A stretch of DNA of 64,000 nucleotides from Sulfuritalea sp. (GTDB lineage: Bacteria > Pseudomonadota > Gammaproteobacteria > Burkholderiales > Rhodocyclaceae): contig JADJUP010000026.1 in NCBI GenBank assembly GCA_016716965.1, positions 56,604 through 120,603 on the forward strand. Reading direction: 5' to 3'. The first letter of the stretch is position 1. Each line of letters opens with the position of its first letter. Positions 25,687-42,358 of the stretch are shown piece after piece. Both the position numbers and the translations under genes were made by a program. The notes under the pieces were generated by a model. It was not told where the DNA came from. It made no database searches and saw nothing but the letters and a program-made list of their open reading frames with translations.

Positions 25687-27132
25687 ATGAACGCAATGGA
25701 ACCGCCAAATTTTGGCGCGAGCGCGCCGGTGGCCGCCACGGCCGCATTCAAACGCACCTTCGCCGAGATGCATGCCGCGACCCGGCGCAATCCCGAGGTC
25801 GATCGCAGTCGCCGCCAGGCGCGTCTCGATGCGCTGCTGGCGCTGGTTCATGACAACGGCGATCGGTTTGTCGATGCGATCGCGGCCGACTTCGGTCATC
25901 GCTCGGCGCACGAAACACGCCTGCTCGAACTGTTTCCCAGCCTCGAAGCAGTGCGCCACACGCGCTCGCATTTCGGCGCCTGGATGAAGCCGCAGAAGAA
26001 GGCACCATCGATCTGGTTTCGTCCGGGCCGGGCGCGCATCATCAACCAGCCGCTGGGCGTGGTCGGCATCATCGTGCCCTGGAACTACCCGCTGTTCCTC
26101 GCCATCTCGCCCATGGCAGCGGCGCTGGCGGCCGGCAATCGGGTCATGGTCAAGATGTCCGAATTCACGCCGCGCACCGGCGAACTGCTGGCCGAACTGG
26201 CGGGCAGGTACTTTGCCGCCGAGGATGTCGCCGTGGTGCTGGGTGATGCGGCGGTCGGCGCCGATTTCGCCCGCCTGCCCTTCGACCATTTGCTGTTCAC
26301 CGGATCGACCAAGGTCGGCCACGACATCATGCGCATGGCGGCAGACAACCTGACGCCGGTCACGCTGGAACTCGGCGGCAAGTCGCCGGCCATCGTCGGC
26401 GCCGACTACCCGCTGGCCAAGGCGGCCGAGCGCATCATGGTCGGCAAGCTGCTCAACGCCGGGCAGACCTGCATCGCGCCCGATTACGTGCTGGTGCCGG
26501 CCGGACGCGAGCAGGCCTTCATCGAGGCGGCGCGCGCCGTGGTGGCGAAGTTGTTTCCCGACATGGCGAACACTCCCGACTACACCGCGATCGTCAACGA
26601 GCGCCATTACCAGCGCCTGCAGGGCTATCTCGCTGATGCACGGGAACGCGGCGCGACCATCGAGCCGTTGTCGACAGCGCAGGCCGACGACGTGCACCGC
26701 CGCCTGCCACCGATGGCCTTGCTTCAGGTCGACGATGGCATGCGCGTGATGCAGGACGAGATCTTCGGCCCGCTCCTGCCGGTGTTGCCCTACCATGACC
26801 TCGATGGCGCGATCTTTCATGTGAACCAGCATCCGCGCCCGCTGGCGCTTTACTATTTCGGCAATGATGGGGCGCAGCGCGACCGCGTGCTCAACGAAAC
26901 CGTGGCCGGCGGCGTCACCATCAACGACACCATCCTGCACATCGCCCAGGAAGAGTTGCCTTTCGGTGGCGTCGGACCCAGCGGCATGGGCCACTACCAT
27001 GGCATCGAAGGCTTCAAGACCTTCACCAAGCAGAAGGCGGTGTTCTACCAGTCCGGGCTCAATGGGATGTCGCTGTTCAATCCGCCCTATGGCGTGCTGT
27101 TCGAGCGCCTGACGAAGTTCCTGATGCGCTGA
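25687..27132 (+). CDS. Aldehyde dehydrogenase (coniferyl/fatty aldehyde DH, CalB/AlkH-like)
   Basis: PWNYP, FTGST, LELGGKSP, catalytic NAGQTCIAPD, EIFGP, PFGGVGPSGMG. Confidence 0.92.
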   Translation: MNAMEPPNFGASAPVAATAAFKRTFAEMHAATRRNPEVDRSRRQARLDALLALVHDNGDRFVDAIAADFGHRSAHETRLLELFPSLEAVRHTRSHFGAWMKPQKKAPSIWFRPGRARIINQPLGVVGIIVPWNYPLFLAISPMAAALAAGNRVMVKMSEFTPRTGELLAELAGRYFAAEDVAVVLGDAAVGADFARLPFDHLLFTGSTKVGHDIMRMAADNLTPVTLELGGKSPAIVGADYPLAKAAERIMVGKLLNAGQTCIAPDYVLVPAGREQAFIEAARAVVAKLFPDMANTPDYTAIVNERHYQRLQGYLADARERGATIEPLSTAQADDVHRRLPPMALLQVDDGMRVMQDEIFGPLLPVLPYHDLDGAIFHVNQHPRPLALYYFGNDGAQRDRVLNETVAGGVTINDTILHIAQEELPFGGVGPSGMGHYHGIEGFKTFTKQKAVFYQSGLNGMSLFNPPYGVLFERLTKFLMR

Positions 27133-27141
27133 AAGTCGGCG

Positions 27142-28047
27142 ATGGCGGCACGGCAATTGCGCTGGCTACTGTTCGCCGAACTGGCGATCTACGGGGTGCT
27201 CGGCGTCTGGCTGGCAGCACGCGGATGGACACCGCTTGAGGCGGCAGGTTTCGGTTTGGCATGTTTTCTTGTAGTGCGACTGTGCCTGGTCCTGCTGACC
27301 TTCGGCTTCATGTTGAGGGGGGCCGGTGCGGTTCCCGAGCAGATGCGCATCGGTCCGCTACAGGCACTGCGCATGGTGCTCGAGGAGTATGCCGCACTGA
27401 TCGTCCTGTTCACCGTGATCCAGCCCTTCGAAGGATTCTGGCTGGGCCCCGACCGCCTCGGCCATTGCGCGACGCGTCCGCTGCCCCTGTTGTTGATCCA
27501 TGGCTACCAGTGCAATCGCGGATTCTGGGTCTGGATGCGCTGGCGCCTGGAAGCAGCAGGCTGGACCGTTGCGACCCACAGCCTGGAGCCGGTCTATGCC
27601 GATATCGACAGCTACTCTGAGGGCATTGCGCGGCGTATCGAAGAGGTGCTGGCGAGCACCGGTGCGCCACAAGTGATCCTGGTCGGACACAGCATGGGTG
27701 GCCTGGCATCCCGCGCCTACCTGCGGTGCCATGGAACCGGGAAGGTGGCGCGCTTGATCACGCTGGGTTCGCCGCATCATGGAACGCTGCTGGCGTGTCT
27801 GGGCCTTGGCCCGAATGCGCGCCAGATGCGCATCGACAGTCCCTGGCTCCGCGCGCTGCCGGCGACGTTGCCGCCGACGTCGGTGTCGATCTACAGTTTG
27901 CACGACAACTACGTGTTTCCGCAGGAGACCAGCTCCCGGCTGGAAGGCGCAAGCAATACGGCCATCAGCGGCGTCAGCCATCTGGGCATGGCCTTTTCGC
28001 CCCGGATGCTGCGCAGTTTGCTGGAAGCGCTCGAAACATCGGATTGA
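27142..28047 (+). CDS. Membrane-anchored alpha/beta hydrolase (lipase/esterase)
   Basis: N-terminal TM helices; LIHGY oxyanion motif, GHSMGG, GSPHHG, SHLGM. Confidence 0.85.
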   Translation: MAARQLRWLLFAELAIYGVLGVWLAARGWTPLEAAGFGLACFLVVRLCLVLLTFGFMLRGAGAVPEQMRIGPLQALRMVLEEYAALIVLFTVIQPFEGFWLGPDRLGHCATRPLPLLLIHGYQCNRGFWVWMRWRLEAAGWTVATHSLEPVYADIDSYSEGIARRIEEVLASTGAPQVILVGHSMGGLASRAYLRCHGTGKVARLITLGSPHHGTLLACLGLGPNARQMRIDSPWLRALPATLPPTSVSIYSLHDNYVFPQETSSRLEGASNTAISGVSHLGMAFSPRMLRSLLEALETSD

Positions 28048-28068
28048 ATCTGAACGATCGGGAACGTC

Positions 28069-29673
28069 ATGAAAGAGTTCGATTACATCGTAGTGGGTGG
28101 TGGTGCCGGAGGCTGTGCCGTGGCGGGTCGCCTTTCGGAAGATCCGGCGGTGAGCGTATGCCTGCTGGAAGCGGGCAAGGGCGACGACCAGTTGCTGATC
28201 AAGGTGCCCTTTTGTACCGCGCTGATGCTGCCGACCTCGATCAACAACTGGGCGTTCGAAACGGTGCCGCAGCCAGGTCTCAACGGCCGGCGCGGTTACA
28301 TGCCGCGCGGCAAGGCCATGGGCGGTTCGACCTCGATCAACGCGATGGTCTATACGCGCGGCCATCCATGGGATTACGACCAATGGGCGGCGTTGGGCAA
28401 TGACGGTTGGTCCTGGCAGGATGTGCTGCCCTATTTCAGGAAATCGGAGCACAACGAGAACTTCGGCGGCGAGTACCACGGGCGGGACGGACCGCTCAAT
28501 GTCGCGAACCTGCGTTCGAAGAATCCCTTTCAGGAAATCTATCTGGAAGCCGCACGCCAGACCGGCTTCAAGCTGATCGACGACTTCAACGGCGCCGACC
28601 AGGAAGGCATCGGCATCTACCAGGTCATGCAGATGAACGGCGAACGCTGGAACGCCGCCCGCGCCTATCTGGCACCGCACATGGCAAGCCGACCCAACCT
28701 GACGGTGATCACCCAGGCGCGGGCGCGACGCGTTGTGTTCACTGGCAAGCGCGCCAGCGCCGTGGAATTCCTGCAGGGCGGCGAAGTCCAGACCGTCCAG
28801 GCGAAACGTGAAGTGCTCCTGGCCGCCGGCGCGATCCAGTCGCCCCAGTTGTTGATGCTCTCCGGCATCGGCGCCGGCGCCGAACTGCAGCAGTTCGGCA
28901 TCCCCGTCATCCACGACCTTCCCGGCGTCGGCAAGAACCTGCAGGACCATCCGGACTATGTCTTCAACTACCGCGCCAGGTCGCTTGACCTGCTCGGCAT
29001 CTCCCTTGGTGGCGCAGTGCAGATGATGAAAGAGGTCGGCCGCTATCGGAGGGAACGCACCGGCATGATGACCTCGAACGGCGCCGAGGGCGGCGGCTTC
29101 CTGCGCCGCTTCCCGGATTCGCCGGCGCCGGAGTTCCAGTTGCACTTCGTAGTCGGCATGATCGACAGCCATGCGCGCAAATTGCATATGGGGCACGGCT
29201 ATTCCTGCCATGTCTGCCTGCTGCGGCCGAAGAGCGTTGGAACGCTGGCGCTGGCCAGTGCCGATCCATTGGCGGCACCTCGCATCGATCCGAATTTTTT
29301 CGGCCATCCCGACGATCTCGAGGCCATGGTCGATGGCTTCAAGCTGACACGCAAGCTGATGGATGCGCCGATCCTCGCGGGTATTCGCACCGGCGAGGTC
29401 TATACGGAAGGGATACATTCCGACGATGCGATACGCGAGGAACTCAGGAAGCGCTCCGACACCATCTATCACCCGATCGGAACCTGCAAGATGGGCAACG
29501 ATGCGATGGCGGTGGTTGATTCGCGATTGCGCGTGCGAGGCCTCGAAGGCCTGCGCGTGGTGGATGCCTCGATCATGCCGACGCTGATCGGCGGCAATAC
29601 CACTGCGCCGACCCTGATGATCGGCGAAAAGGCCGCAGAGATGATACGTAGCGACGCCGGGGTCGCAGCCTGA
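28069..29673 (+). CDS. GMC oxidoreductase (AlkJ/choline dehydrogenase-like)
   Basis: VGGGAGG, PRGKAMGGSTSINAM, NLQDH, YHPIGTCKMG, GNTTAP. Confidence 0.92.
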   Translation: MKEFDYIVVGGGAGGCAVAGRLSEDPAVSVCLLEAGKGDDQLLIKVPFCTALMLPTSINNWAFETVPQPGLNGRRGYMPRGKAMGGSTSINAMVYTRGHPWDYDQWAALGNDGWSWQDVLPYFRKSEHNENFGGEYHGRDGPLNVANLRSKNPFQEIYLEAARQTGFKLIDDFNGADQEGIGIYQVMQMNGERWNAARAYLAPHMASRPNLTVITQARARRVVFTGKRASAVEFLQGGEVQTVQAKREVLLAAGAIQSPQLLMLSGIGAGAELQQFGIPVIHDLPGVGKNLQDHPDYVFNYRARSLDLLGISLGGAVQMMKEVGRYRRERTGMMTSNGAEGGGFLRRFPDSPAPEFQLHFVVGMIDSHARKLHMGHGYSCHVCLLRPKSVGTLALASADPLAAPRIDPNFFGHPDDLEAMVDGFKLTRKLMDAPILAGIRTGEVYTEGIHSDDAIREELRKRSDTIYHPIGTCKMGNDAMAVVDSRLRVRGLEGLRVVDASIMPTLIGGNTTAPTLMIGEKAAEMIRSDAGVAA

Positions 29674-29845: not shown

Positions 29846-31123
29846 TTGATTTCGGATTTCATCAGCGATTCACTACGCACCACGGCACTGGGTGCCGCAA
29901 TGAAGGGTGCCGGTTTGGCCGTGCGCTTCCTGCCCATACCGCAGCCGACGATCCTGGTCGGGCCGGGTGCCAGCGGACGGCTTGGGCAAACCATCGCCGG
30001 CTTCGGCCACCGCAAGATCCTCATCGTCACCGACAGCATCATTTCCAAGCTGGGCCTGCTCGATGACCTGACCTCGGCCCTGACGGCGGGCGGCGCGGAG
30101 TACGTGGTCTTCGATTCGATCACGCCCGATGCGCCGATTCCGCTGATCGAGGAGGGCATCGACTTCTATGAGGCGAACGACTGCGATGCCATCGTGGCCT
30201 TCGGCGGCGGGTCTTCGATGGATGCCTCCAAGGCCATCGCCGCGGCGGTTTCCAATCCCGGCAAGTCGCTGCGCGAGCTGGCCGGCTATTTCAAGGGCCT
30301 GCATACGCCGGTCAAGATCTACGCCGTTCCCACCACCGCGGGCACCGGCTCGGAGGTGACCGTTGCCGCGGTGATCTCGGACCCGGAACGCCATGCCAAG
30401 CTGGTGATCGTCGATACGCGACTGGTGCCGAAGATGGCGGCGCTCGACCCCTGCCTGATGACCGGGCTGCCGCCGCACATCACCGCGGCGACGGGCATCG
30501 ACGCCCTGACCCACGCCATCGAATCCTTCATCGGCAAGTGGGCCAATTCCTACACGGATGACATGGCCCTGTCGGCCGTCGGGCTGATATTCGACAATCT
30601 GCGGGTGGCCTATAGCGACGGCAAGAACCTCGCCGCACGGGAAAAGATGGCCCTGGCCGCCACCTATGCGGGGCTTGCCTTCACGCGGGCCAACGTCGGC
30701 TATGTGCATGCGATCGCGCACCAGTTCGGCGGCAGGTACCACACCCCGCACGGACTGGCCAACGCCATCATGCTGCCGCTGGTCCTCAAGTACTCGCTGC
30801 CGGCCGTCACCGACCGCCTGGCCCTGCTGGCGGTGCGCGCCAGGCTCGGCAAGGAAAGCGAAGGGGAAGATGCGCTGGCGCAGAAGTTCCTCGACGCGGT
30901 CGTGCAACTCAATAGCGACCTCGGCATCCCGACCTGCCTCGCCGCGCTGAAGGAATCCGACATTCCGCAATTGGCCGAGGCCGCCTGTCGCGAGGCTCAC
31001 ACCGGCTATCCGGTGCCGCGCTACATGACGCAGGCGCAGTGCGAGGATCTGATTCGCCAGGTGCTGCCGCCGGCGCCGGCGGCGCCGAAGAAGCCGGTCC
31101 GGCGTCGCAAGAAGCCGGAGTAG
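29846..31123 (+). CDS. Iron-containing alcohol dehydrogenase
   Basis: GGGSSMD, PTTAGTGSE, DALTHAIE, HAIAHQ, HGLANA; TTG start after a GAGGAG RBS (alternative ATG at 29900). Confidence 0.9.
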   Translation: MISDFISDSLRTTALGAAMKGAGLAVRFLPIPQPTILVGPGASGRLGQTIAGFGHRKILIVTDSIISKLGLLDDLTSALTAGGAEYVVFDSITPDAPIPLIEEGIDFYEANDCDAIVAFGGGSSMDASKAIAAAVSNPGKSLRELAGYFKGLHTPVKIYAVPTTAGTGSEVTVAAVISDPERHAKLVIVDTRLVPKMAALDPCLMTGLPPHITAATGIDALTHAIESFIGKWANSYTDDMALSAVGLIFDNLRVAYSDGKNLAAREKMALAATYAGLAFTRANVGYVHAIAHQFGGRYHTPHGLANAIMLPLVLKYSLPAVTDRLALLAVRARLGKESEGEDALAQKFLDAVVQLNSDLGIPTCLAALKESDIPQLAEAACREAHTGYPVPRYMTQAQCEDLIRQVLPPAPAAPKKPVRRRKKPE

Positions 31124-31182: not shown

Positions 31183-33501
31183 ATGAAAAAAGTCGTTACC
31201 GTGACCCTGGGGTCGTCGAAAAAGGATTTCGAATTCAAGACGAAGTTCCTCGGCCAGGAATTCCAGGTGCGGCGCTTCGGCGCTGACAAGGACAGCAGCA
31301 AGGCCTGGGAGCTGATGCGACGCCAGCAGGCCAATGCCGATGCCATCGCCCTGAGCGACATGCCCGACCACTACCACGTCGGCTTGCGCACGGTGATCAA
31401 CAAGAAGTCGCAGCATCTGATGCAGGTCGTCACGCGGGTACCTGTCACCACGGGCGCCAGCCTGCGGCGGCTGCTGCAAGTGCGTGCCGTGCGCTACGTG
31501 CAGAAGGAGCTGGGTCGTTACTTCGACAATAACCTGGTCCTGTTCCTCTCCGGAATGCGCAATTACGACATGGCGGTGGCCCTGTCCGACTACACCAGGA
31601 ACCTCAGCTTTGCCGATCCTGTCTTCCATGCCGCTTCTCCCGTGCTGCTGAGTTCGCTCGATCAGCTCGAACTTTTCGCCAAGGGCAAGGAACTCCTTCC
31701 GGACGGCGTGCCGGGAGACTTCCTGAAGTCCGTTCTGGGTACGCTGAAGAACAAGATCGTGGCCAACGCCGTGGCCAAGTCCCATGTCATCGTCGGCACC
31801 TTCCGCGAAATCCAGGCCGTTGCCGCCGGCGGCAACCTGGAAGGCAAGACGCTGATCACCTCGGCTGTCGATGACGAGGCGTTTGCCTTTTTCGCCAAGC
31901 ACAAGGTCAACCTTGCGGTGGATGTCTCGCCCAAGCTCTTCGATCAGGTGGTCGGCATCAGCACCATCACTGCCATGATTCTCGCGGCCACCGGAAAGTC
32001 GGAAGCGGAACTCACCGACCATGATTTCGAGGAGATACTCCACGAGCTCGACATCAAGCCGCGCCTGCTCCATCCCACCGGACATTTCCGCAACATTCGC
32101 CGCTTCGCCTTCGTGGTCCATCCGCTGAGCCAGGAGTACATCAAGAAGGGCTTCCCGCTGCCCAAGGGCACGCCCAAGTTCATCATGGACAAGGTGGAAA
32201 CGCTCGCCGCCTACATGCCGCCGATGGTGTATTGCAAGATGAGCAACATCGTCTCGCCCACCGGCGCCGAGGCTGAAGGCTGGCTGATTTCCGTGGGTGG
32301 CACACCCAAGGAAATGCTCTCGCACAGCCCCGAGTTCACCTACCGGCGCCTGCTTCACGCGGCGAAGATCGCCGAAGGCCTGGGCGCCCAGATCATGGGC
32401 CTTGGGGCCTTCACCAAGGTCGTCGGCGATGCAGGCATCACCGTGGCGCGACGCGCGAGCATTCCGATCACCACCGGCAACAGCTACTCCGCATCCGGCG
32501 CGCTCTGGGCGGCGGCCGACGCCATGCGCCGCATGGGCCTGATCAAGCCGACCAAGGATTCGAAACGGGTGCCGGCGAAGACCATGGTGATCGGCGCCAC
32601 TGGCTCCATCGGTTCGGTCAGCGCCCGCCTGCTGGCCATGGCCTTCGACGAAGTGGTGATCGCCGGGCGCGACATCAAGAAGCTCAATGAGCTGCGCGAT
32701 TCGATCCTGCAGGACACGCCCGATGCCAAGGTCATCTCATCCACGGATTATGACAGCCTGCTTGGCGACATGGACATGATCGTCACTTCGACCTCGGGTG
32801 CCGGCAAGAAGATCCTGGATATCACCAAGGTCAAGCCTGGCTGCGTGATCACCGACGTGGCACGCCCCCTCGATCTGCCGCCCTCGGAGGTGGCCAAGCG
32901 CCCGGATGTGCTGGTGATCGAATCGGGTGAGATCGAATTGCCGACGCCGGTCAAGGGCATGAAGTCGATCGGCTTGCCGAAGAATGTCATCTACGCCTGC
33001 CTGGCGGAGACAATCGTCCTGGCGCTGGAGGGACGCTTCGAGGTATTTACCATCGGTCGCGATACCGAATGGGAGAAGGTCAAGGAGATCTACAAGCTCG
33101 GCATCAAGCACGGCATGAAGCTGGCGGCGATATCGGGTGTCAAGGGTGTCTACACGGACGAAGATATTGCCAAGGTAGTGGCCCTCGCAAGAAAGGCGCG
33201 ATCAACCTGGAAGGGTTCCAGCGCCGTTTCTGCTGCCAAGGCGCCGGCGAAGAAATCCGCGGCGAGCAAGGCCGTGGCCAAGGAGAAGAAGGTCACGGAA
33301 GCCAAGGCTCCCGCGAAGAAGGCCACGACAAAAAAGGCCGTAGCCAAGAAGTCCACGGAAGCGAAGGCTCCGGCGAAGAAGGCCGTGCCAACCAAGGCTT
33401 CCGCCAAGATCGTGGTTGCGGCGAAGAAACGGGCTTCTGGTCCGGCACCGGCAAAGAACGCTGCCGGCGCCGCAAGCGGGAAGAAAAAGGCGTCGACATA
33501 A
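31183..33501 (+). CDS. Three-part dehydrogenase: unknown N-terminal domain + acyl-ACP reductase-like domain + Lys/Ala-rich tail
   Basis: GLGAFTKVV, TTGNSYS, GATGSIG, YACLAETIVLALEG align by eye with cyanobacterial AAR (LGGFTSII, TTGNTHT, GATGDIG, FACFAEAMLLEFEG). Confidence 0.75.
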   Translation: MKKVVTVTLGSSKKDFEFKTKFLGQEFQVRRFGADKDSSKAWELMRRQQANADAIALSDMPDHYHVGLRTVINKKSQHLMQVVTRVPVTTGASLRRLLQVRAVRYVQKELGRYFDNNLVLFLSGMRNYDMAVALSDYTRNLSFADPVFHAASPVLLSSLDQLELFAKGKELLPDGVPGDFLKSVLGTLKNKIVANAVAKSHVIVGTFREIQAVAAGGNLEGKTLITSAVDDEAFAFFAKHKVNLAVDVSPKLFDQVVGISTITAMILAATGKSEAELTDHDFEEILHELDIKPRLLHPTGHFRNIRRFAFVVHPLSQEYIKKGFPLPKGTPKFIMDKVETLAAYMPPMVYCKMSNIVSPTGAEAEGWLISVGGTPKEMLSHSPEFTYRRLLHAAKIAEGLGAQIMGLGAFTKVVGDAGITVARRASIPITTGNSYSASGALWAAADAMRRMGLIKPTKDSKRVPAKTMVIGATGSIGSVSARLLAMAFDEVVIAGRDIKKLNELRDSILQDTPDAKVISSTDYDSLLGDMDMIVTSTSGAGKKILDITKVKPGCVITDVARPLDLPPSEVAKRPDVLVIESGEIELPTPVKGMKSIGLPKNVIYACLAETIVLALEGRFEVFTIGRDTEWEKVKEIYKLGIKHGMKLAAISGVKGVYTDEDIAKVVALARKARSTWKGSSAVSAAKAPAKKSAASKAVAKEKKVTEAKAPAKKATTKKAVAKKSTEAKAPAKKAVPTKASAKIVVAAKKRASGPAPAKNAAGAASGKKKAST
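33235..33405 (+). repeat. Degenerate in-frame tandem repeats encoding KAPAKK...(K)AVAK...TEA units
   Basis: Three AAGGC(G/T)CC(G/C)GCGAAGAA copies spaced about 60-66 bp apart. Confidence 0.8.
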
Positions 33502-33596: not shown

Positions 33597-33684
33597 GAGG
33601 TCATTAGTGTGACCTCTCTAATGCGAGTCGATAGACTTGATCGGATGGTGGGCAAAGCGTCCGCCCGGGCCTTGACTTCAAGGC
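33597..33684. promoter_or_regulatory. Inverted repeats upstream of the phasin gene (candidate operators)
   Basis: GAGGTCA-N6-TGACCTC (33597-33616) and GCCTTGA-CT-TCAAGGC (33669-33684). Confidence 0.4.
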
Positions 33685-35588: not shown

Positions 35589-36239
35589 GTGATGGAAAAG
35601 AAACCTAAGCGCCGCACGCGAGAGCGCATCCTGGAGACGTCACTGGCGTTGTTCAACGATTTCGGCGAGCCGAACGTCACCACGCAACTCATATCCGACG
35701 AAATGGGCATAAGCCCCGGAAACCTCTATTACCACTTTCACAACAAAGACGAGATCATCGAGTCCCTGTTCGGCGATTTCGAGCGCGGCATAGAGGAAAC
35801 CCTCGGCGCGCCGTCGCGACGCCCGCCCAATGTCGAGGACATCTGGCTGTTCCTGCACCTGATCTTCGAGGGCATCTGGAGGTACCGATTCCTCTATCGC
35901 GACATCAACGAACTGCTTTCGCGCAACCGGCTGCTGGAAACGCACTTCAAGCGCATCGTGGCGCACAAGGTGAATACCGCGCGGCTGATCTGCAAGGGCC
36001 TGGTGGCGACCGGCGACATGAAGGCGACCCCGGCAGAGATCCAGGCGCTGGCGGTGAATATGACGGTGGTCGCAACCTACTGGCTGTCGTATGAGTTCGT
36101 CAGCGATCCGCGGAAGAAGATCGACGGAGAAAGCCTGTCGCGCGGCGCGTTTCAGGTCATGGCGCTCGCTGCGCCCTACCTCGTGGGGCGCTCGCGCGAA
36201 CTGTTCGAGGAAGTGTCGAAGAATTACCTGCCCGACTGA
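35589..36239 (+). CDS. TetR family regulator, PhaD-like
   Basis: TRERILETSLALFNDFGEPNVTT...GISPGNLYYHF and EDIWLFLHL..YRFLYRD resemble Pseudomonas PhaD. Confidence 0.85.
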   Translation: MMEKKPKRRTRERILETSLALFNDFGEPNVTTQLISDEMGISPGNLYYHFHNKDEIIESLFGDFERGIEETLGAPSRRPPNVEDIWLFLHLIFEGIWRYRFLYRDINELLSRNRLLETHFKRIVAHKVNTARLICKGLVATGDMKATPAEIQALAVNMTVVATYWLSYEFVSDPRKKIDGESLSRGAFQVMALAAPYLVGRSRELFEEVSKNYLPD

Positions 36240-36246
36240 GAGCCCG

Positions 36247-37044
36247 ATGAGACCTGCCACTGCAAAGCCTGCCTGGGCCAAGTTCCCGCATGCGGACAAG
36301 GCATTCATTTACGCCGGTGCCTCGCTGAAGAAGAATTGGGAACGCCTGCATCGGGGAGACCAGGAACCCTTTCCTGCCGATCCGGCCGTTCAGGAGGCAT
36401 GGCGGCTCTATCATCAGGGCGAGTTCCAGGCCGCTTGCGAGGCCGGACTTGCTGCCGGGATCGATGGCTACAACGCCGCCAACAAGGCCGCCATGATCTA
36501 CGCCACCTACCTCGAAGGCGACGAGCGGCGCAAGCTGGAAACATTCCAGGGCATTGCCGCGCGCTGTGGGGAATTGCAGCGGGCGCAGCCGAAGAACGTC
36601 AACGGGCATTACTTCCAGGCCTATGCGCTGGGCCGTTACAGCCAGGGCATCTCGGTGCTCAAGGCCCTGACCGACGGCCTCGGCGGCAGGATCAAGTCCG
36701 CACTGGAAGCGACCCTGCGCCTGGAGCCGAGACATGCCGAGGCGCATAGTGCGCTGGGCGCCTACCATGCCGAGGTCGTGGACAAGATGGGGGCCATGGT
36801 CGCCAGGCTCACTTACGGTGCGAGCAAGGAACTTGCCGTCAAGCACTTCGAGACGGCACTGAAGCTGACTCCGGATTCGGCGATCGCCTGCATCGAATAC
36901 GCCAATGCGCTAGTCATGTTGTTCGGCGACAAGCGCATGGACGACGCGATCGATCTCTACGAAAAGGCCGCAGCGGCAACCCCGGTCGAGGCCATGGAAA
37001 AGCTCGACGTCGAACTGGCGAAGTCGGAACTCGAAGACGAGTAG
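36247..37044 (+). CDS. Conserved hypothetical helical-repeat (TPR-like) protein
   Basis: Native codon usage; helical repeats (AYALGRYSQ, AHSALGAYHAE, IEYANALVML). Confidence 0.75.
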   Translation: MRPATAKPAWAKFPHADKAFIYAGASLKKNWERLHRGDQEPFPADPAVQEAWRLYHQGEFQAACEAGLAAGIDGYNAANKAAMIYATYLEGDERRKLETFQGIAARCGELQRAQPKNVNGHYFQAYALGRYSQGISVLKALTDGLGGRIKSALEATLRLEPRHAEAHSALGAYHAEVVDKMGAMVARLTYGASKELAVKHFETALKLTPDSAIACIEYANALVMLFGDKRMDDAIDLYEKAAAATPVEAMEKLDVELAKSELEDE

Positions 37045-37047
37045 AGC

Positions 37048-38643
37048 TTACGTCCGGAACCGCTTCGGTATCCGTCGCGCTGCCTTCGGCTCGAGAGTCG
37101 GCGCTGGCGACACGGCGGCTGCGGCTGACGACTTCGGCGCGACCTTGCGCCTTCCGGGTTTATGCGGTGTGACTGCCGGCACCCCGGTGACGCGACGGCC
37201 GAACAGGCTTTCTTCGGCCATTGCCGGATCGATCGGCCGATCCCATTCCAGCATGAGAAGTGCCAGCAGCATCTTTTCGAACTCGGCAGCGAACAGCGGC
37301 GTGACGGTCTCCGGGTCGGGGATGAAATGGCGGTCACTGATCAGGCTGAACTGCACCGCATCGTTGTAGCTGAGGATCGAGACTCCGACCCCGATGTCGC
37401 CCGACTGCGGCACCCAGAACATGCACTGATCGAGCCGGTTGCCGGCCAGGTAGAGCGGCTGCTTGGGGCCGGGCACGTTGGTCATCACCGCGCTGGCCTT
37501 GGCCGCCAGCATGTCGAGGAACTGCTGCTGCACCAGCTTCGGCGCAAGGCCGACGACGGCGAGGACGCCCAGCGTCAGCGGCGGCTGGAAGGAGTGCTTC
37601 AGTTCGTTCATGCGTTCGCGCACCAGGAACAGCCGCGCGAAGGGATTGGCCTCCCAGATCGGCAGCGACAGCGTGACCAGGCCGAAGCGGTTGCCCAGCG
37701 TGCCTTCGTCCCGCGCCGAGCGCAGGTTGACCGGCACCATCGCGCGCACCTCGACGCCGTCGACGGTTTCGCCCTTCTGCTGCAGATAGGCACGGAAGGC
37801 TCCGGCCACGGCCGAGAGCAGGACGTCATTGACCGAGCAGCCGAGCGCCTTGCCCAGCGCCTTGACTTCGCCCAGGGGTATCGGATCGGCCCAGGCCACG
37901 CGCTTCACGGTGCCGGTGTGGCCCTTCAGGCTGGTTGGTGAATCGGGTGGCATCGCCAGCAGCTTGGCAAGTTCGGCCAGCAGGCCGATGCCGTACTGGC
38001 CATAGGTTTGCAGACGGTCGGGGTCCTGCGCCAGGGACATGGCCTTGCTGCCCAGGTCGCTGCCGGCATGGACGGCCGAGCCCAGGGTTTCGGCCAGGGT
38101 TTCGAGCAGGCCGCGCGAAGGTTCATCGAACTCCCCGTCCTCGTCGCCGACGGGCGGTGGTGCCTTCTGCGGCGGAGCGTCGGCCGACTCGTCGGTGAGC
38201 GACAGCACCACGCCGACCAGCGCGATGCCGTCGGCGATGCTGTGGTGGATGCGGACCACCATGGCCGAGCCGCCTTCGTAGTCCTCGATCAGGTCGAAAC
38301 GCCACAGCGGCTTGCCCGGGTTCAGCGGCTGCACCGCAAGTTCGCCGGCCAGCGCCTGCAAGGCGACCTTGCCCGAGCCCCGGGGCAGGGCACGGCGGCG
38401 CAGGTGCGCGTCGATGTCGAAGTCGGGATCGTCTTCCCAGAACGCGCCGCCGACTTCCTGCACCGCGCACTGGCGGAAGCGCCGGTAGCGTCCGACAAGG
38501 CGGGCCGCGATGGTGTTGCGCAGGCGGGCGAAGTCCATGCGCCGGGCAAAGACCATGACGCCGAGGATCATCATCAGGTTGGTCGGCCGGTCCATGCGCA
38601 GCCAGGCCGTATCAACAGCAGACATTCTTTCGCGTCGGTGCAT
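37048..38643 (-). CDS. Wax ester synthase/diacylglycerol acyltransferase (WS/DGAT)
   Basis: MSAVDTAWLRMD, catalytic HHSIADG, SVNDVLL, VPVNLR, TNVPGP, SILSYND. Confidence 0.93.
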   Translation of the reverse strand: MHRRERMSAVDTAWLRMDRPTNLMMILGVMVFARRMDFARLRNTIAARLVGRYRRFRQCAVQEVGGAFWEDDPDFDIDAHLRRRALPRGSGKVALQALAGELAVQPLNPGKPLWRFDLIEDYEGGSAMVVRIHHSIADGIALVGVVLSLTDESADAPPQKAPPPVGDEDGEFDEPSRGLLETLAETLGSAVHAGSDLGSKAMSLAQDPDRLQTYGQYGIGLLAELAKLLAMPPDSPTSLKGHTGTVKRVAWADPIPLGEVKALGKALGCSVNDVLLSAVAGAFRAYLQQKGETVDGVEVRAMVPVNLRSARDEGTLGNRFGLVTLSLPIWEANPFARLFLVRERMNELKHSFQPPLTLGVLAVVGLAPKLVQQQFLDMLAAKASAVMTNVPGPKQPLYLAGNRLDQCMFWVPQSGDIGVGVSILSYNDAVQFSLISDRHFIPDPETVTPLFAAEFEKMLLALLMLEWDRPIDPAMAEESLFGRRVTGVPAVTPHKPGRRKVAPKSSAAAAVSPAPTLEPKAARRIPKRFRT

Positions 38644-38765: not shown

Positions 38766-39023
38766 ATGAGCAATCTCAAGAAGAAGTTCGAAGCGGCAGC
38801 AGCCGATTCCAAGAAGCTTCCCGAGCGGCCCTCCAATGACGTGCTGTTGCAGCTTTACGCGCTTTACAAGCAGGGCAGCGAGGGCGACGTGGAGGGCAAA
38901 CGCCCGGGCTTCACCGACATGGTCGGACGCGCCAAGTATGACGCCTGGGCGGCGGTCAAGGGCACCTCGGCCGAGGACGCAATGCAGCAATACATCGATC
39001 TGGTGAAATCGCTCAAGGATTGA
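38766..39023 (+). CDS. Acyl-CoA-binding protein (ACBP)
   Basis: LLQLYALYKQGSEGD, GRAKYDAW, AMQQYIDLV. Confidence 0.92.
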   Translation: MSNLKKKFEAAAADSKKLPERPSNDVLLQLYALYKQGSEGDVEGKRPGFTDMVGRAKYDAWAAVKGTSAEDAMQQYIDLVKSLKD

Positions 39024-39072: not shown

Positions 39073-39354
39073 TCAAGCCGGCCCGAAGTTCTCGTCGCAG
39101 AAGCGGTTGATTTCGTGCTCGATGCGCGGGCCAAGGGCCATCAGCAGGAAGCCGAGCTTGACGTAGATCTCGACTTCCTTCTTGCCGACTTCGATGTGTC
39201 CGGAAACGCCCATGCGCTGGAAGCGCAGGATGTCGCCCTCCCATTCGTGGTCGAGGCCGAATTCCTCGCCGAGTTCCTCGGCGATGTGCTCGGCGCCCTT
39301 GCGCGCCTTCTTGAGCGTGGTGTGGTGCGGACGGCAAACCCGGATTTCACTCAT
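39073..39354 (-). CDS. 'Polyhydroxyalkanoic acid system' family small protein
   Basis: C-terminal part of ORF 39073..39816: MSEIRVCRPHH..ARKGAEHIAEELGEEFGLDHEWEGDILRFQRMGVSG..VKLGFLL. Confidence 0.8.
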   Translation of the reverse strand: MSEIRVCRPHHTTLKKARKGAEHIAEELGEEFGLDHEWEGDILRFQRMGVSGHIEVGKKEVEIYVKLGFLLMALGPRIEHEINRFCDENFGPA

Positions 39355-39368
39355 GCGGCGGCTGCCTC

Positions 39369-41033
39369 CTAGGCTTTCTCGTCGCGCAGTTCGCGACGCA
39401 GTATCTTGCCGACGTTGGTCTTCGGCAGCTCGTTGCGGAAGGCGATGTGGCGCGGTACCTTGTAGGCGGTCAGGTTGGCGCGACAGTGTTCGAGCAGCGC
39501 GGCCTCGGTCAGCGTCGGGTCCTTCTTTACCACGTAGATCTTCACCGCTTCCCCGGTCTTCGTGTCCGGCACGCCAACCGCCGCCGATTCCAGCACGCCC
39601 GGATGCATGGCCAGCACGTCCTCGATCTCGTTCGGATAGACGTTGAAGCCGGAGACCAGGATCATGTCCTTCTTGCGGTCGACGATCTTGACGAAGCCGC
39701 TTGCCTCGATCACCGCCACGTCGCCGGTGCGCAGGAAGCCGTCGGGCATGATGACCTTGGCGGTTTCCTCGGGACGGTTCCAGTAGCCCTTCATAACCTG
39801 CGGGCCGCGCACGCAAAGCTCGCCGGCCTCGCCGAGGGGCAGGTCCCTGCCTTCGTCGTCGCGGATCACCACTTCGGTCGACGAGATCGGCATGCCGATG
39901 CTGCCGTTGTACTGTTCGAGGTCGACCGGGTTGATGGTTGCGGCGGGGGAGGTTTCGGTCAGGCCGTAGGCTTCGAGCAGGGTGGTCCCGGTGAGCTCCT
40001 TCCAGCGCTCGGCCACCGCGCGCTGCACCGCCATGCCGCCGCCCAGTGTCAGGCGCAGCTGGGACAGGTCGATCCTGGCGAAGTCCGGATTGTTCACCAT
40101 GGCATTGAACAGCGTATTGACGCCGGTGATGGTGGTGAACGGGTACTTGCCGATCTCCTTGATGAACCCGGGAATGTCGCGCGGATTGGTGATCAGCACG
40201 TTGGTGGCGCCTATCTTGAAGAAGGTCAGGCAGTTCGCCGTCAGCGCGAAGATGTGGTAAAGCGGCAGCGCGGTAATGATGATTTCATGGTCACGCAGGA
40301 AGGGCTTGATCCAGGCATGGGCCTGCTGCAGGTTGGCGATGATGTTGCGATGGGTCAGCATCGCGCCCTTGGATACGCCCGTGGTGCCGCCCGTGTACTG
40401 CAGGAAGGCGAGGTCCTCGTGCCCCACTTCGACCGGCTTGAGCGGATAGCGGCCGCCCTCGATCAGCGCGTCGCGCAGTTCGATGGCATTGGCGATGCTC
40501 CATGCCGGTACCATCTTCTTGACGTGCTTCACCACCAGGTTGACGATCATGCGTTTGGGGAAGTCGAGCATGTCGCCCAGCTGGGTGACGATCACGTGCT
40601 TCACCGGCGTGCGCGTGACCACGTTTTCCAGCACCCTGGCGAAGTTCTCGACGATGACGATGGCCTCGGCGCCGGAATCCTTGAGCTGGTGCTCCAGTTC
40701 GCGCTCGGTGTACAGCGGGTTGCAGTTCACCACCGTGTAGCCGGCGCGCAGCGCGCCGTAGAGGCAGATCGGGTACTGCAGCAGGTTGGGCATCATCAGC
40801 GCGATGCGCGCGCCCCTGGGCAGTTTCAGCACGGACTGGCAGTAGGAGCCGAAGGCGGCCGAGAGCTTTTCCAGCTCGGCGTAGGTGATCGCCTTGTCCA
40901 TGTTGATGTAGGCCTTGCGCGGCCCGTAGAGCTTGACGCTCTTCTCGAACAGGTCGCCGATCGAGCGAAATTCGTTGAGGTCGATTTCTGCCGGCACGCC
41001 GGCCGGATAATGCTTGAGCCAGATCTTTTCCAT
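39369..41033 (-). CDS. fadD: Long-chain fatty-acid-CoA ligase
   Basis: [49 protein letters not shown]. Confidence 0.93.
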
Positions 41034-41110
41034 GGTGGATGCCTCCTTGAGTTTTTCTCATTCTAATCACATTGGGGTGGGCCGAATCGTCCGCCGCGAG
41101 CGTTCCCGGC

Positions 41111-42358
41111 TCAGCAAAGCCAGTGTTGCAAACGCTCCGCCACTTGAGCATCGTCGAGCAGGTCCATGTGGTTCATGCCGTAGCCGATCCAGCGCCGCGA
41201 TTCCGGGAAATCGAGTCGGCCGCGCTTCGCGCTGCCCTCGCCGAGAGCGCTCTTCACGGGCACCAGGCCATCACCCAGCAGCGGCTCAGCGAAATGGGCC
41301 GGAGCCTTGGCCAGGGTCACGCCTATCGCATGGCATTGCACGCCGGCAGGCAGGGGGATCAGGCGCGGCGCGCGACCGCGGGCGAAGCGGTCGCCGTGTT
41401 CCCAGTCTTCGTCGAGGATGCTGCCGTGACGCAGGTCGGTGATCCCGGCGCTGCGTATCTTTCCCAGGCGGGCCAGGGCGGCCGTGTAGGGGCTGATGCC
41501 CAGGATCACGTCGATCCAGTTGCCGCCGCGCTCCAGCGGTGCGCCGAGGTGTGGCGTGCCGAGAAACACCATCTGGCGCAGGTGGGCCAGCCAGGCCTGA
41601 CCTGATTTCTCGGCATGGCGGCAGGCGCTGCGGGCGACCAGTCCGCCCATGCTGTGGCCGACGATGACGAGTTTCTCGATCGGAACCGGCCACGACTTGA
41701 TCAGGTCCTCAAGCAATTCCGAGAGCGCCCGGCCGTTGGTCGAAACATGCTGGCCGCTGTTGTAGTGCAGGTAGAGCGGGGTGTAACCGCCGGCCGCCGC
41801 CAGCGCGGCGCCGTGGTCGTAGCCGCCGCGCCGCCACTGGAGGTCGTTCATGCACAGGCCATGCGCCAGCAACAGGATCCTTCCGGTCGCGCCGGGGAGG
41901 GCGGCCACCAGGTCGTTGCGTTCGAGCGGCAACGGCCGGCCGTTTCGCCGCAGGCGCATTTCGATGGCCAGTGGATTGCCGCTGGCGGCCAGGTGGTCGC
42001 CCAGCACGCCGTTGAGCGCGGCGAGCACCGCCTCGCGCGTGGCGGACGATTCCGTGGGTTCGGCGTCGACCAGCGGCAGCAACTGGCCGATCAGGGCGTC
42101 GATACCGTGGCCGACCAGGCGCGTGCAGCCCTGGATGCTGCGATAAACCAGGCCGGTGATGCCGCGTGGCAGCTCCTGCGAGAACTGTCCGAGCGGCCCG
42201 GGCATGCGCGCAATGTTGTGGTGCATGCTCGCCACCAGCCGCGTCAGGCCGAGTGTGGCGTCCACCGCGAGGCGACTGGCGCCGCGAATGTCGCCAGGGC
42301 GTACATGTGCCTTGCGTGCCGGCGCCGCGTGCGACGCACTGGCTTTGGGTCTGGCCAT
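41111..42358 (-). CDS. Alpha/beta hydrolase (PGAP1/lipase-like)
   Basis: AHGLCMND, YNSGQH, GHSMGG, GTPHLGAP, GDGLVP, NHMDLL. Confidence 0.85.
   Translation of the reverse strand: MARPKASASHAAPARKAHVRPGDIRGASRLAVDATLGLTRLVASMHHNIARMPGPLGQFSQELPRGITGLVYRSIQGCTRLVGHGIDALIGQLLPLVDAEPTESSATREAVLAALNGVLGDHLAASGNPLAIEMRLRRNGRPLPLERNDLVAALPGATGRILLLAHGLCMNDLQWRRGGYDHGAALAAAGGYTPLYLHYNSGQHVSTNGRALSELLEDLIKSWPVPIEKLVIVGHSMGGLVARSACRHAEKSGQAWLAHLRQMVFLGTPHLGAPLERGGNWIDVILGISPYTAALARLGKIRSAGITDLRHGSILDEDWEHGDRFARGRAPRLIPLPAGVQCHAIGVTLAKAPAHFAEPLLGDGLVPVKSALGEGSAKRGRLDFPESRRWIGYGMNHMDLLDDAQVAERLQHWLC

What the first reader, a model, noticed from the sequence alone, without database searches (positions are those of the whole stretch)
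25687..42358. Candidate undescribed wax-ester storage/turnover system with phasin-type granule proteins
Seen: a contiguous ~17 kb with ALDH, lipase, GMC oxidoreductase, Fe-ADH, AAR-like reductase, PhaF phasin, patatin, PhaD-like TetR, TPR-like protein, WS/DGAT (intact HHxxxDG), ACBP, PHA-system protein, FadD and a second lipase. Known: wax esters need acyl-CoA, its reduction to fatty alcohol, and WS/DGAT; characterised producers (Acinetobacter, Marinobacter) use Acr1/FAR-type reductases. Inference: route FadD/ACBP to AAR-like (aldehyde) to Fe-ADH (alcohol) to WS/DGAT, stored in phasin-coated inclusions and remobilised by the lipases and oxidases. In a denitrifier this could serve as an electron and carbon sink. 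I know of no characterised system with this composition, but have not searched.
Basis: partly seen in the sequence, partly recalled or inferred. Interest (0 to 1): 0.85.

Follow-up and report, generated by a model that had tools for sequence, protein, structure and literature searches.

The report
Wax-ester lipid-body cluster with new reductase
A Sulfuritalea-like denitrifier has one gene cluster that most likely makes, coats, regulates and breaks down wax-ester fat droplets; its coat and regulator proteins are known so far only from bioplastic (PHA) granules, and an unstudied reductase plus alcohol dehydrogenase stands where relatives have the usual fatty-alcohol enzyme.

Summary
The cluster also includes an upstream FFLEELY-motif gene (24812-25570).

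Comparative genomics supports the reading:
- The cluster's gene content recurs in shuffled order around WS/DGAT in 20 genomes from 8 GTDB families.
- In a 301-genome sample of the order, the PhaF-type phasin tracks WS/DGAT (45 of 47 genomes). It does not track PhaC (216 genomes).
- Fe-ADH and the AAR-like fusion are neighbours in all 71 related loci that hold the Fe-ADH start. In at least 12 Burkholderiales loci they form an ADH-AAR-WS/DGAT same-strand triplet.
- In relatives, the place next to the phasin gene holds a 661-667 aa fatty acyl-CoA reductase. Here the Fe-ADH/AAR pair stands there, and this genome shows no such reductase.
- A conserved operator (TTAGTGTG-N4-CTCTAA) lies upstream of the phasin gene.
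- Basic A/K/P tails are conserved on Fe-ADH, the AAR fusion, WS/DGAT and the phasin.

A 2023 paper noted part of this neighbourhood, and this scan had already found the cluster and the fusion on other DNA. Verdict: a new variant of a known kind, and uncharacterised in the literature I could search.

The parts
24812..25570 (-). FFLEELY-motif protein. A conserved companion gene that extends the cluster to the left.
   Evidence: NF047641, E 5e-72. Orthologs at 38-49% identity lie in 15 of the 20 WS/DGAT-phasin loci, usually next to the PHA_gran_rgn gene.
25606..25623 (-). Weak operator-like site in the divergent region between FFLEELY and ALDH.
   Evidence: Three mismatches to TTAGTGTG-N4-CTCTAA. 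Comparable weak sites lie upstream of FFLEELY in L096, L097 and L101. Marginal on its own.
25687..27132 (+). Aldehyde dehydrogenase. Inferred role: oxidation of fatty aldehyde to fatty acid.
   Evidence: PF00171, E 3.5e-86. Orthologs at 51-58% identity recur in the cluster in the f280, f239 and f283 loci.
27142..28047 (+). Alpha/beta hydrolase ('lip1') with a hydrophobic N-terminus.
   Evidence: Several alpha/beta-hydrolase and lipase Pfam families match. GHSMG at residue 182. The N-terminus is hydrophobic. Orthologs recur in 7 of 20 loci.
28069..29673 (+). GMC flavoprotein oxidoreductase. Inferred role: oxidation of fatty alcohol.
   Evidence: GMC_oxred_N and GMC_oxred_C. Choline-dehydrogenase subfamily, 584.8 bits, just under the 605 cut-off. 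Recurs in L102, L105, L108 and L110. The substrate is an inference.
29846..31123 (+). Iron-containing alcohol dehydrogenase with a basic C-terminal tail. Proposed role: fatty aldehyde reductase.
   Evidence: PF00465 and PF25137. The TTG start at 29846 follows from coding sequence conserved upstream of the first ATG. It lies next to the AAR fusion in all 71 related loci that hold its start. In more distant lineages the two genes are still adjacent but divergently transcribed. The tail's net charge has a median of +7 over 65 orthologs.
31183..32097 (+). N-terminal domain of the fusion protein (residues 1-305). Probably a degenerate, non-catalytic copy of the AAR fold.
   Evidence: No Pfam hit. 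AF2 pLDDT 87. By Foldseek, AAR gives the highest query TM-score, 0.50; periplasmic sugar-binding proteins rank higher by E-value. hhalign of N-domain against C-domain is colinear over 197 columns, P 0.011. The domain has no glycine-rich motif and no Cys.
32098..33270 (+). AAR/PigE-type thioester reductase domain. Proposed role: acyl-CoA or acyl-ACP to fatty aldehyde.
   Evidence: PigE N-terminal domain, E 4.5e-52; TIGR04058, E 2e-17. PDB 4ppm, E 1.5e-28, and 6jzq, E 2e-13, with YACLAE aligned to the AAR catalytic-Cys motif FACFAE. GATGSIG and C606 are invariant across 56 homologs. Foldseek target TM-score of up to 0.78 to AAR.
33271..33501 (+). Histone-H1/PhaF-like A/K/P-rich basic tail of the fusion protein.
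   Evidence: Read from the sequence. Median net charge +10 on the last 35 aa in 79 orthologs. Bdellovibrionota homologs are about 685 aa long, about 90 aa shorter, which implies that they lack this tail; their C-termini were not inspected.
33604..33621 (+). Conserved 18-bp operator TTAGTGTGACCTCTCTAA, 111 bp upstream of the phasin gene. Presumed binding site of the cluster's TetR.
   Evidence: Perfect match to the consensus. The same motif lies upstream of a phasin gene in at least 12 other loci, and every match scanned is intergenic, none inside a gene; a TAnAnT box follows about 12 nt downstream.
33715..34200 (+). PhaF-type phasin with an A/K/P tail. Proposed coat protein of neutral-lipid bodies.
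   Evidence: TIGR01837, 101.3 bits, above the cut-off. It co-occurs with WS/DGAT in 45 of 47 genomes and lies within 10 kb of it in 25 of 45. The genome has four separate PhaP-type phasins elsewhere.
34238..35521 (+). Patatin-like lipase.
   Evidence: PF01734, E 7e-29. Catalytic motifs intact. Orthologs at 48-58% identity follow a phasin gene in most loci.
35589..36239 (+).
   Evidence: PF13972, E 2.9e-44, and TetR_N. Orthologs at 40-64% identity in 14 of 20 loci.
36247..37044 (+). 265-aa protein with weak TPR matches. Function unknown; it travels with the TetR gene.
   Evidence: Only sub-threshold TPR hits. Start chosen at the Met that follows the TetR stop. Orthologs at 42-60% identity beside TetR in 13 of 20 loci.
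37048..38625 (-). WS/DGAT acyltransferase with a basic C-terminal tail.
   Evidence: TIGR02946, 388.9 bits against 309.95. HHSIADG. Tail net charge median +8. One of four WS/DGAT paralogs in this genome.
38766..39023 (+). Acyl-CoA-binding protein, followed by a terminator-like hairpin at 39031-39052.
   Evidence: PF00887, E 3.9e-31. Divergent from WS/DGAT here and in 11 of 20 loci. Hairpin.
39073..39366 (-). PHA_gran_rgn ('PHA system') protein.
   Evidence: PF09650 and TIGR02610, above the cut-off. Orthologs recur in the cluster, usually beside FFLEELY.
39369..41033 (-). Long-chain fatty-acid--CoA ligase (FadD).
   Evidence: NF005463, 903 bits against 869. Orthologs at 56-64% identity in 10 of 20 loci, and beside WS/DGAT and the AAR fusion in L091.
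41111..42358 (-). PGAP1/DUF676-type alpha/beta hydrolase ('lip2').
   Evidence: PF07819, E 1.3e-13. GHSMG. Kept in Sulfuritalea loci and at 57% identity in L102.

Best explanation
The stretch 24812-42358 is a self-contained gene set for neutral-lipid (most likely wax-ester) bodies.

Synthesis (inferred). FadD activates fatty acids and ACBP buffers the acyl-CoA pool. The AAR/PigE-type domain of the 772-aa fusion protein reduces an acyl thioester to a fatty aldehyde through an acyl-Cys606 intermediate and NAD(P)H. The adjacent Fe-ADH reduces the aldehyde to a fatty alcohol. WS/DGAT then esterifies the alcohol with acyl-CoA.

Packaging (inferred). The PhaF-type phasin coats the lipid body, perhaps together with the PHA_gran_rgn, FFLEELY and TPR-like proteins. 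The basic A/K/P tails shared by the phasin, Fe-ADH, the fusion protein and WS/DGAT bring the enzymes to the same surface, either the nucleoid or an anionic monolayer.

Control (inferred). The PF13972-type TetR represses the phasin-patatin-TetR-TPR operon at the operator at 33604-33621 until a lipid-derived ligand releases it.

Turnover (inferred). Patatin, lip1 and lip2 hydrolyse the esters. The GMC oxidoreductase and the ALDH return the alcohol to fatty acid, which FadD re-activates.

Shown here: gene identities, catalytic motifs, folds, conservation of the neighbourhood and of the operator, and genome-level co-occurrence. Everything biochemical is inferred.
For: 1. Identities and intact motifs.
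2. Fe-ADH lies next to the fusion gene in all 71 related loci that hold the Fe-ADH start. At 53-56% identity the two genes are still adjacent although divergently transcribed.
3. An ADH-AAR-WS/DGAT same-strand triplet with differing flanks occurs in at least 12 Burkholderiales loci, and Pfam confirms it in L080 and L041. In L091 the order is WS/DGAT-FadD-AAR, then a divergent Fe-ADH.
4. Slot replacement. In L096 and L107 (L107 is from the same GTDB family as this genome) a 661-667 aa NAD_binding_4 + SDR reductase is divergent from the phasin gene. Here the gene directly upstream of the phasin is the ADH/AAR pair. This genome's best NAD_binding_4 hit is 57 bits, against about 165 bits for those reductases.
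5. No aldehyde-deformylating oxygenase in the genome, so this is not an alkane pathway.
6. The cluster's content recurs around WS/DGAT in 20 genomes of 8 families, in shuffled order.
7. In a 301-genome sample the phasin occurs in 49 genomes, WS/DGAT in 47, both in 45 and neither in 250. PhaC occurs in 216.
8. The genome has four canonical PhaP-type phasins and a phaC-phaB-phaB-phaR locus elsewhere.
9. The operator is conserved and always intergenic.
10. The basic tails are conserved on four of the proteins.
Against: - There are no lipid, transcript or localisation data.
- WS/DGAT enzymes can make TAG instead of wax esters.
- The ADH/AAR pair could run in the oxidative direction.
- The AAR-like domain scores far below the AAR equivalog cut-off (63.5 bits against 449.7), and its acyl carrier and chain length are unknown.
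- Distant homologs in Bdellovibrionota sit with a lipid kinase and an SDR, not with Fe-ADH or WS/DGAT, so the family is not tied to wax esters everywhere.
- The co-occurrence statistic is not corrected for phylogeny.
- The genome also makes PHB, so a role of the phasin on PHA granules is not excluded.
- No operator was found upstream of Fe-ADH in this window.
Confidence: 0.62

Rival explanations
1. The Fe-ADH/AAR pair works in the catabolic direction. Fe-ADH oxidises fatty alcohols to aldehydes, and the AAR-like domain acts as an acylating aldehyde dehydrogenase that yields acyl thioesters without spending ATP. The cluster would then mainly degrade wax esters or alkanols, whether taken up or stored.
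For: The cluster holds three hydrolases, a GMC oxidoreductase, an ALDH and FadD. Thioester/aldehyde interconversion is reversible in principle (general knowledge). An MFS transporter follows the pair in about 14 Rhodoferax-type loci.
Against: The cluster already has a separate oxidative route (GMC plus ALDH). The pair forms operons with WS/DGAT, a biosynthetic enzyme. It stands in the slot of an alcohol-forming acyl-CoA reductase. The characterised relatives AAR and the PigE reductase domain work reductively (PDB 6jzq and related entries; PMC8341465).
Confidence: 0.15
2. The bodies are mainly triacylglycerol. WS/DGAT acts as a DGAT, and the phasin kit coats TAG droplets. The alcohol made by ADH/AAR would serve another purpose, or would be only a minor wax-ester fraction.
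For: WS/DGAT enzymes are bifunctional (general knowledge). Most of the 20 conserved clusters lack the ADH/AAR pair. The genome has four WS/DGAT paralogs.
Against: No Kennedy-pathway genes (GPAT, AGPAT, PAP) were seen in the cluster. The two relatives' clusters I checked carry a fatty acyl-CoA reductase beside the phasin. ALDH and GMC genes recur in the cluster, and TAG turnover would not need them.
Confidence: 0.15
3. The phasin, TetR and PHA_gran_rgn genes are an ordinary PHA-granule kit that merely lies next to lipid genes. They would serve the genome's PHB or mcl-PHA granules.
For: The genome has three PhaC-like genes, one of them 17 kb upstream in this window.
Against: In the order-wide sample the phasin is present in about 22% of PhaC-bearing genomes at most (no more than 49 of 216) but in 96% of WS/DGAT-bearing ones. 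It lies within 10 kb of WS/DGAT in 25 of 45 genomes. None of the listed PhaC matches lies in the 20 cluster regions (274 further matches were not listed). The genome has four PhaP-type phasins for PHB.
Confidence: 0.05

Closest known systems
Marinobacter aquaeolei VT8 / Acinetobacter baylyi ADP1 wax-ester pathway (fatty acyl-CoA reductase or Acr1, plus WS/DGAT)
   Same: A WS/DGAT with the HHxxxDG motif; a supply of acyl-CoA through FadD; and the logic of reducing an acyl thioester to a fatty alcohol before esterification.
   Different: No NAD_binding_4-type or Acr1-type reductase was recognised in this genome. An AAR/PigE-type reductase fusion plus a separate Fe-ADH stand in its place. The cluster also carries PHA-type coat and regulator genes, ACBP and hydrolases.
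Cyanobacterial acyl-ACP reductase AAR (TIGR04058; PDB 6jzq, 6jzu, 6jzy)
   Same: The same fold (target TM-score of up to 0.78), the same catalytic-Cys motif (ACLAE against ACFAE) and the same glycine-rich NAD(P)H site.
   Different: The score is only 63.5 bits against a cut-off of 449.7. There is no deformylating oxygenase partner. The protein has an extra degenerate AAR-like N-terminal domain and a basic tail. It pairs with Fe-ADH and WS/DGAT, not with an alkane pathway.
PigE N-terminal thioester-reductase domain (prodigiosin MAP pathway; NF053554; PDB 4ppm; PMC8341465)
   Same: It is the closest sequence relative of the catalytic domain (E 4.5e-52; E 1.5e-28 to 4ppm). It reduces a thioester to an aldehyde.
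   Different: PigE fuses the reductase to a transaminase and works in pigment synthesis. Here there is no transaminase, the partner is an alcohol dehydrogenase, and the context is storage lipid.
Pseudomonas putida mcl-PHA granule kit (PhaF/PhaI phasins, PhaD TetR regulator, TIGR02610 protein)
   Same: The same protein families. The phasin has a histone-like A/K/P tail. A TetR-family regulator is encoded beside the phasin gene.
   Different: No PHA synthase or depolymerase lies in the cluster. WS/DGAT, patatin and ACBP take those places, and the phasin's distribution follows WS/DGAT.
Betaproteobacterial WS/DGAT scaffolds described in PLoS One 2023 (PMC10351704)
   Same: WS/DGAT next to ACBP, a 'PHA system' protein, a phasin and, on some scaffolds, a Maqu_2507-like reductase.
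   Different: That paper describes a few metagenome scaffolds. It does not mention the AAR-like/Fe-ADH pair, the TetR operator, the basic tails or the genome-wide co-occurrence, and it reports no functional work.

Membership tests
WS/DGAT (TIGR02946; PF03007 + PF06974) | Both Pfam domains present, and a score above the NCBIfam cut-off | tested here: met
   PF03007, E 1.6e-34, and PF06974, E 6.9e-38. TIGR02946, 388.9 bits against 309.95.
WS/DGAT (TIGR02946; PF03007 + PF06974) | Catalytic HHxxxDG motif | tested here: met
   HHSIADG at residue 167 of the long ORF.
WS/DGAT (TIGR02946; PF03007 + PF06974) | Wax-ester synthase and/or DGAT activity | not testable with these tools
   Needs an enzyme assay or lipid analysis.
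Cyanobacterial AAR (TIGR04058 equivalog) | Score above the equivalog cut-off | tested here: not met
   63.5 bits against 449.7. The protein is a relative, not a member.
Cyanobacterial AAR (TIGR04058 equivalog) | Catalytic Cys and NAD(P)H-binding glycine motif in the AAR fold | tested here: met
   YACLAE aligns with FACFAE, and GATGSIG is present. C606 is invariant in 56 homologs. Foldseek E 8e-19, target TM-score 0.75-0.78.
Cyanobacterial AAR (TIGR04058 equivalog) | Works with an aldehyde-deformylating oxygenase to make alkanes | tested here: not met
   PF11266 is not found in the own genome (92% complete), while the Synechococcus control is detected.
PhaF/PhaI-type phasin (TIGR01837) | Score above the family cut-off, and a basic A/K/P tail of the PhaF type | tested here: met
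   101.3 bits against 94.7. The tail is seen and is conserved.
PhaF/PhaI-type phasin (TIGR01837) | Encoded with, and acting on, a PHA synthase system | tested here: not met
   The phasin gene is clustered with WS/DGAT. Co-occurrence is 45 of 47 with WS/DGAT, whereas PhaC is in 216 of 301 genomes. Granule binding itself cannot be tested here.
Marinobacter/Acinetobacter-type wax-ester pathway | A fatty acyl-CoA reductase of the NAD_binding_4 (FAR) or Acr1 type | tested here: not met
   The best NAD_binding_4 match in the own genome is 57 bits in a 352-aa frame, against 162-167 bits for the reductases in relatives' clusters. An Acr1-like plain SDR cannot be excluded.
PhaD-type TetR regulator (PF13972 C-terminal domain) | TetR_N helix-turn-helix plus the PF13972 ligand domain, encoded beside a phasin gene, with an operator in the phasin promoter | tested here: met
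   PF13972, E 2.9e-44, and PF00440. The conserved palindromic 18-mer lies upstream of the phasin gene in the window and in at least 12 other loci. Binding itself was not tested.

The most novel reading that the evidence does not exclude
In Burkholderiales and Rhodocyclales the PhaF-type phasin family is a coat of wax-ester/TAG bodies, not of PHA granules. The low-complexity basic A/K/P tails shared by the phasin, Fe-ADH, the double-AAR-fold reductase and WS/DGAT would act as a common address. That address would assemble a fatty-alcohol/wax-ester metabolon on nucleoid-tethered lipid bodies, with the AAR-like/Fe-ADH pair as a previously unrecognised, non-orthologous bacterial route to fatty alcohols.
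Probability: 0.3. Interest if true: 0.8.

Novelty: new variant of a known kind. Interest (0 to 1): 0.62.

Why it matters
Bacterial wax-ester and TAG bodies are well studied only in a few Gammaproteobacteria and Actinobacteria. To my knowledge, no dedicated coat proteins are known for Gram-negative lipid bodies.

This cluster offers concrete candidates for four things:
- a coat protein (the PhaF-type phasin, and perhaps the PHA_gran_rgn, FFLEELY and TPR-like proteins);
- a regulator together with its operator;
- a first physiological role for a bacterial ACBP;
- a third, non-orthologous route to fatty alcohols (an AAR/PigE-type reductase plus Fe-ADH), which is of interest for oleochemical engineering.

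It would also change how 'PHA' annotations (TIGR01837, TIGR02610, PhaD-like TetR) are read in about one sixth of the sampled Burkholderiales-order genomes. And it points to neutral-lipid storage in abundant freshwater, groundwater and sludge denitrifiers (Sulfuritalea, Rhodoferax, Rubrivivax, Accumulibacter relatives).

Tried and rejected
- **Class-wide sample.** An even sample of the GTDB class (300 genomes) held the fusion protein only in the own genome. That was too coarse, so I moved to the order.
- **Literature.** Searches for an AAR-type reductase with wax esters, for COG5322, for FFLEELY/TIGR02610/TIGR01837, and for phasin with WS/DGAT found only PMC10351704 as relevant. The 'phasin' hit in the TAD preprint was the word 'phasing'.
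- **Shared words between promoters.** An exact 9-mer search among the cluster's intergenic regions found nothing. The operator appeared only when phasin upstream regions were compared across genomes.
- **Motifs upstream of Fe-ADH.** The common 8-mers (GGCATACT, ATCAGGGTTT) do not occur in this window's upstream region or in the two Sulfuritalea-type regions shown, so I did not use them.
- **GMC substrate.** A tblastn of the GMC protein against plasmids returned only generic 'GMC family' annotations. It gave no support either way for an AlkJ-like role.
- **N-terminal domain as a sugar-binding domain.** Periplasmic-binding-protein folds rank first by Foldseek E-value (TM 0.3-0.45). I rejected that reading in favour of a degenerate AAR duplicate, because AAR gives the highest query TM-score (0.50) and the hhalign match is colinear. 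Support for this is modest.
- **Promoter and terminator scan.** Nothing exceeded chance except the hairpin after ACBP.
- **Distant homologs.** Proteins from the representative search (P0121 and following) carried no names.

Full report
**Origin and gene calls.** The window is G000:C26:56604-120603 of a 4.4-Mb, 92%-complete genome. The closest homologs of its proteins are named Sulfuritalea or Rhodocyclales. G+C is about 65%, so I picked reading frames by GC3.

**Catalytic motifs are intact.**
- WS/DGAT has HHSIADG.
- Both alpha/beta hydrolases have GHSMG.
- Patatin has GGGxxG, GVSAG and DGA.

**Corrections to the gene models.**
- Fe-ADH starts at a TTG at 29846. This follows from coding sequence that is conserved upstream of the first ATG in related loci.
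- WS/DGAT probably starts near 38625.
- The TPR-like gene starts at 36247.
- The PHA_gran_rgn gene is 39073-39366.

**The 'AAR-like reductase' is a three-part protein of 772 aa (31183-33501).** Residues about 306-690 match the N-terminal thioester-reductase domain of PigE (NF053554, E 4.5e-52) and, more weakly, cyanobacterial AAR (TIGR04058, 63.5 bits, far below the cut-off of 449.7). Against solved structures, PigE (4ppm) gives E 1.5e-28 and AAR (6jzq) gives 2e-13. In those alignments YACLAE lines up with the AAR catalytic-Cys motif FACFAE, and a GATGSIG nucleotide site is present. Both features are invariant in 56 homologs. An AlphaFold model (pLDDT 84.6) matches AAR and the carmabin TAD domain, with E about 1e-18 and a target TM-score of up to 0.78. 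PigE's domain was shown to reduce a thioester to an aldehyde (PMC8341465).

The first 305 residues have no family match. Modelled alone (pLDDT 87), this part is a two-lobed alpha/beta fold. AAR gives the highest query TM-score (0.50), although periplasmic sugar-binding proteins rank higher by E-value. An hhalign of the N-domain profile against the C-domain profile is colinear over 197 columns with P 0.011. I read the N-domain as a degenerate copy of the AAR fold without the glycine motif or the Cys. Support for that is modest. The last 70-80 residues are an A/K/P-rich tail of the PhaF/histone-H1 kind. No aldehyde-deformylating oxygenase is found in the genome.

**Linkage of the reductase to Fe-ADH and WS/DGAT.** I fetched 80 related loci from genome contigs: Sulfuritalea, Rhodoferax, Rubrivivax, Inhella, Variovorax, Hydrogenophaga, Ideonella, Accumulibacter and Azonexus.
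- Fe-ADH lies directly upstream of the fusion gene in all 71 of these loci that hold the Fe-ADH start.
- In three genomes whose fusion protein is only 53-56% identical, the two genes are still adjacent but divergently transcribed.
- In at least 12 Burkholderiales loci with unrelated flanks, a divergent WS/DGAT (about 25% identical to the cluster's enzyme) follows on the same strand. Pfam confirms this for L080 and L041.
- In L091 the order is WS/DGAT, FadD, the fusion gene, then a divergent Fe-ADH.
- Inhella and Variovorax have TetR/TPR or phasin/patatin/TetR, plus WS/DGAT-ACBP-PHA_gran_rgn, near the pair in other orders.

**The wider cluster is conserved across the order.** In an even sample of 301 genomes of the GTDB order:
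- the TIGR01837 phasin occurs in 49;
- WS/DGAT occurs in 47;
- both occur in 45, and neither in 250;
- in 25 of the 45 the two genes lie within 10 kb of each other;
- PhaC occurs in 216.

The Fisher P of 2e-46 is not corrected for phylogeny, but the carriers span at least 13 families.

I then cut out 20 regions from 8 families. Orthologs of the window's genes recur around WS/DGAT (43-54% identity) in shuffled order and orientation:
- phasin, patatin, TetR, TPR-like protein, ACBP, PHA_gran_rgn, FFLEELY and FadD;
- and, in several loci, ALDH, GMC, lip1 and lip2.

Content that stays together while gene order changes is the strongest sequence-level evidence for a shared function. It also brings the FFLEELY gene at 24812-25570 into the system.

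**Slot replacement.** In L096, and in L107 (same GTDB family as this genome, different genus), the gene divergent from the phasin is a 661-667 aa reductase with NAD_binding_4 and SDR domains. From memory, that is the architecture of Marinobacter's Maqu_2507-type reductase. In the window the Fe-ADH/fusion pair stands directly upstream of the phasin. This genome's best NAD_binding_4 match is only 57 bits. This looks like a non-orthologous replacement of the alcohol-forming step, and it is the main argument for the reductive direction of the pair.

**Regulation.** Comparing phasin upstream regions across families revealed the motif TTAGTGTG-N4-CTCTAA, followed about 12 nt later by a TAnAnT box. 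In the window it is perfect at 33604-33621, and a three-mismatch copy lies at 25606-25623 between FFLEELY and ALDH. Across the 26 sequences scanned (the window and 25 loci), every match is intergenic and none lies inside a gene. Most lie 70-290 bp upstream of a phasin gene, and some weaker ones lie upstream of FFLEELY. Its position over the presumed -35 region fits a repressor site, and the TetR encoded in the same operon is the obvious candidate. That assignment is an inference.

**Shared basic tails.** The net charge of the last 35 residues has these medians over orthologs:
- Fe-ADH: +7 (n=65)
- the fusion protein: +10 (n=79)
- WS/DGAT of both types: +8 (n=28)
- the phasin: +9
- GMC: -1

I infer a shared address, to the nucleoid or to an anionic lipid surface.

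**PHA is a separate kit.** The window also holds phaC-phaB-phaB-phaR at 6799-10828. The genome has three PhaC-like genes and four PhaP-type (PF09361) phasins elsewhere.

**Limits.** The product could be TAG. The pair could run oxidatively. Distant homologs in Bdellovibrionota (31-37% identity) sit with a DAGK-type lipid kinase and an NAD_binding_4 SDR instead, so the family's substrate is not fixed.

**What is already known.** PMC10351704 (2023) noted WS/DGAT next to ACBP, a PHA-system protein, a phasin and, on some scaffolds, a Maqu_2507-like reductase on Betaproteobacteria scaffolds. No functional study turned up in five searches. This scan had already reported the fusion protein and the phasin/WS-DGAT cluster on other genomes, with the same reading. 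My tests were run independently of those notes and agree with them. The notes did supply three leads, which I then tested here: the shared control motif, the basic tails and the PhaC contrast.

**Verdict.** This is a real cluster, conserved across the order, and most likely a wax-ester body system. The new element in this genome is that the Fe-ADH/AAR-like pair replaces the usual fatty acyl-CoA reductase.

Noticed in passing
window 6799-10828: A canonical PHB locus (phaC, two phaB-like SDRs, phaR). This phaC frame is short (516 aa; open frame 525 aa against 611 and 634 for the genome's other two copies), and a 125-aa ORF overlaps its end at 8159-8536.
   Followed up: partly
window 21387-22586: An MFS transporter that is 46-51% identical to the MFS gene directly downstream of the AAR fusion in about 14 Rhodoferax/Burkholderiales loci. 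It may belong to the Fe-ADH/AAR module (fatty alcohol or acid transport?), although here it lies 7 kb upstream of Fe-ADH.
   Followed up: no
L089:5876-10106 and L090:6000-10055: In Oligoflexus and Bacteriovorax the two-domain AAR-like protein (31-37% identity, no Fe-ADH, no WS/DGAT) follows a DAGK_cat lipid kinase and an NAD_binding_4/epimerase SDR. Phospholipid-synthesis genes are nearby (CdsA, CDP-OH transferase, DUF3419). This is a different lipid pathway built on the same reductase.
   Followed up: partly
G000:C26:20943-24102 and G000:C56:47371-48177: Three further WS/DGAT paralogs in the same genome. Two are in tandem about 33-36 kb upstream of the window start.
   Followed up: no
L096:14825, L097:14700, L100:15009, L098:16298: In families f276 and f280, a second copy of the operator lies about 600-870 bp upstream of the patatin gene. 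In L097 and L098 a second, divergent phasin (26-38% identity) lies between the two. That suggests two phasin genes under the same control.
   Followed up: partly
window 12184-13089: A second patatin-like phospholipase gene downstream of the PHB locus. It is unrelated in position to the cluster's patatin.
   Followed up: no
window 15344-21340: Hydratase, acyl-CoA dehydrogenase, family III CoA-transferase, MmgE/PrpD, HpcH/CitE-like lyase and a glyoxalase-fold protein in a row.
   Followed up: no
window 23923-24744: A tandem universal-stress-protein gene next to FFLEELY. It is kept in the closest Sulfuritalea loci (L001, L004, L016) but not in the order-wide clusters.
   Followed up: partly
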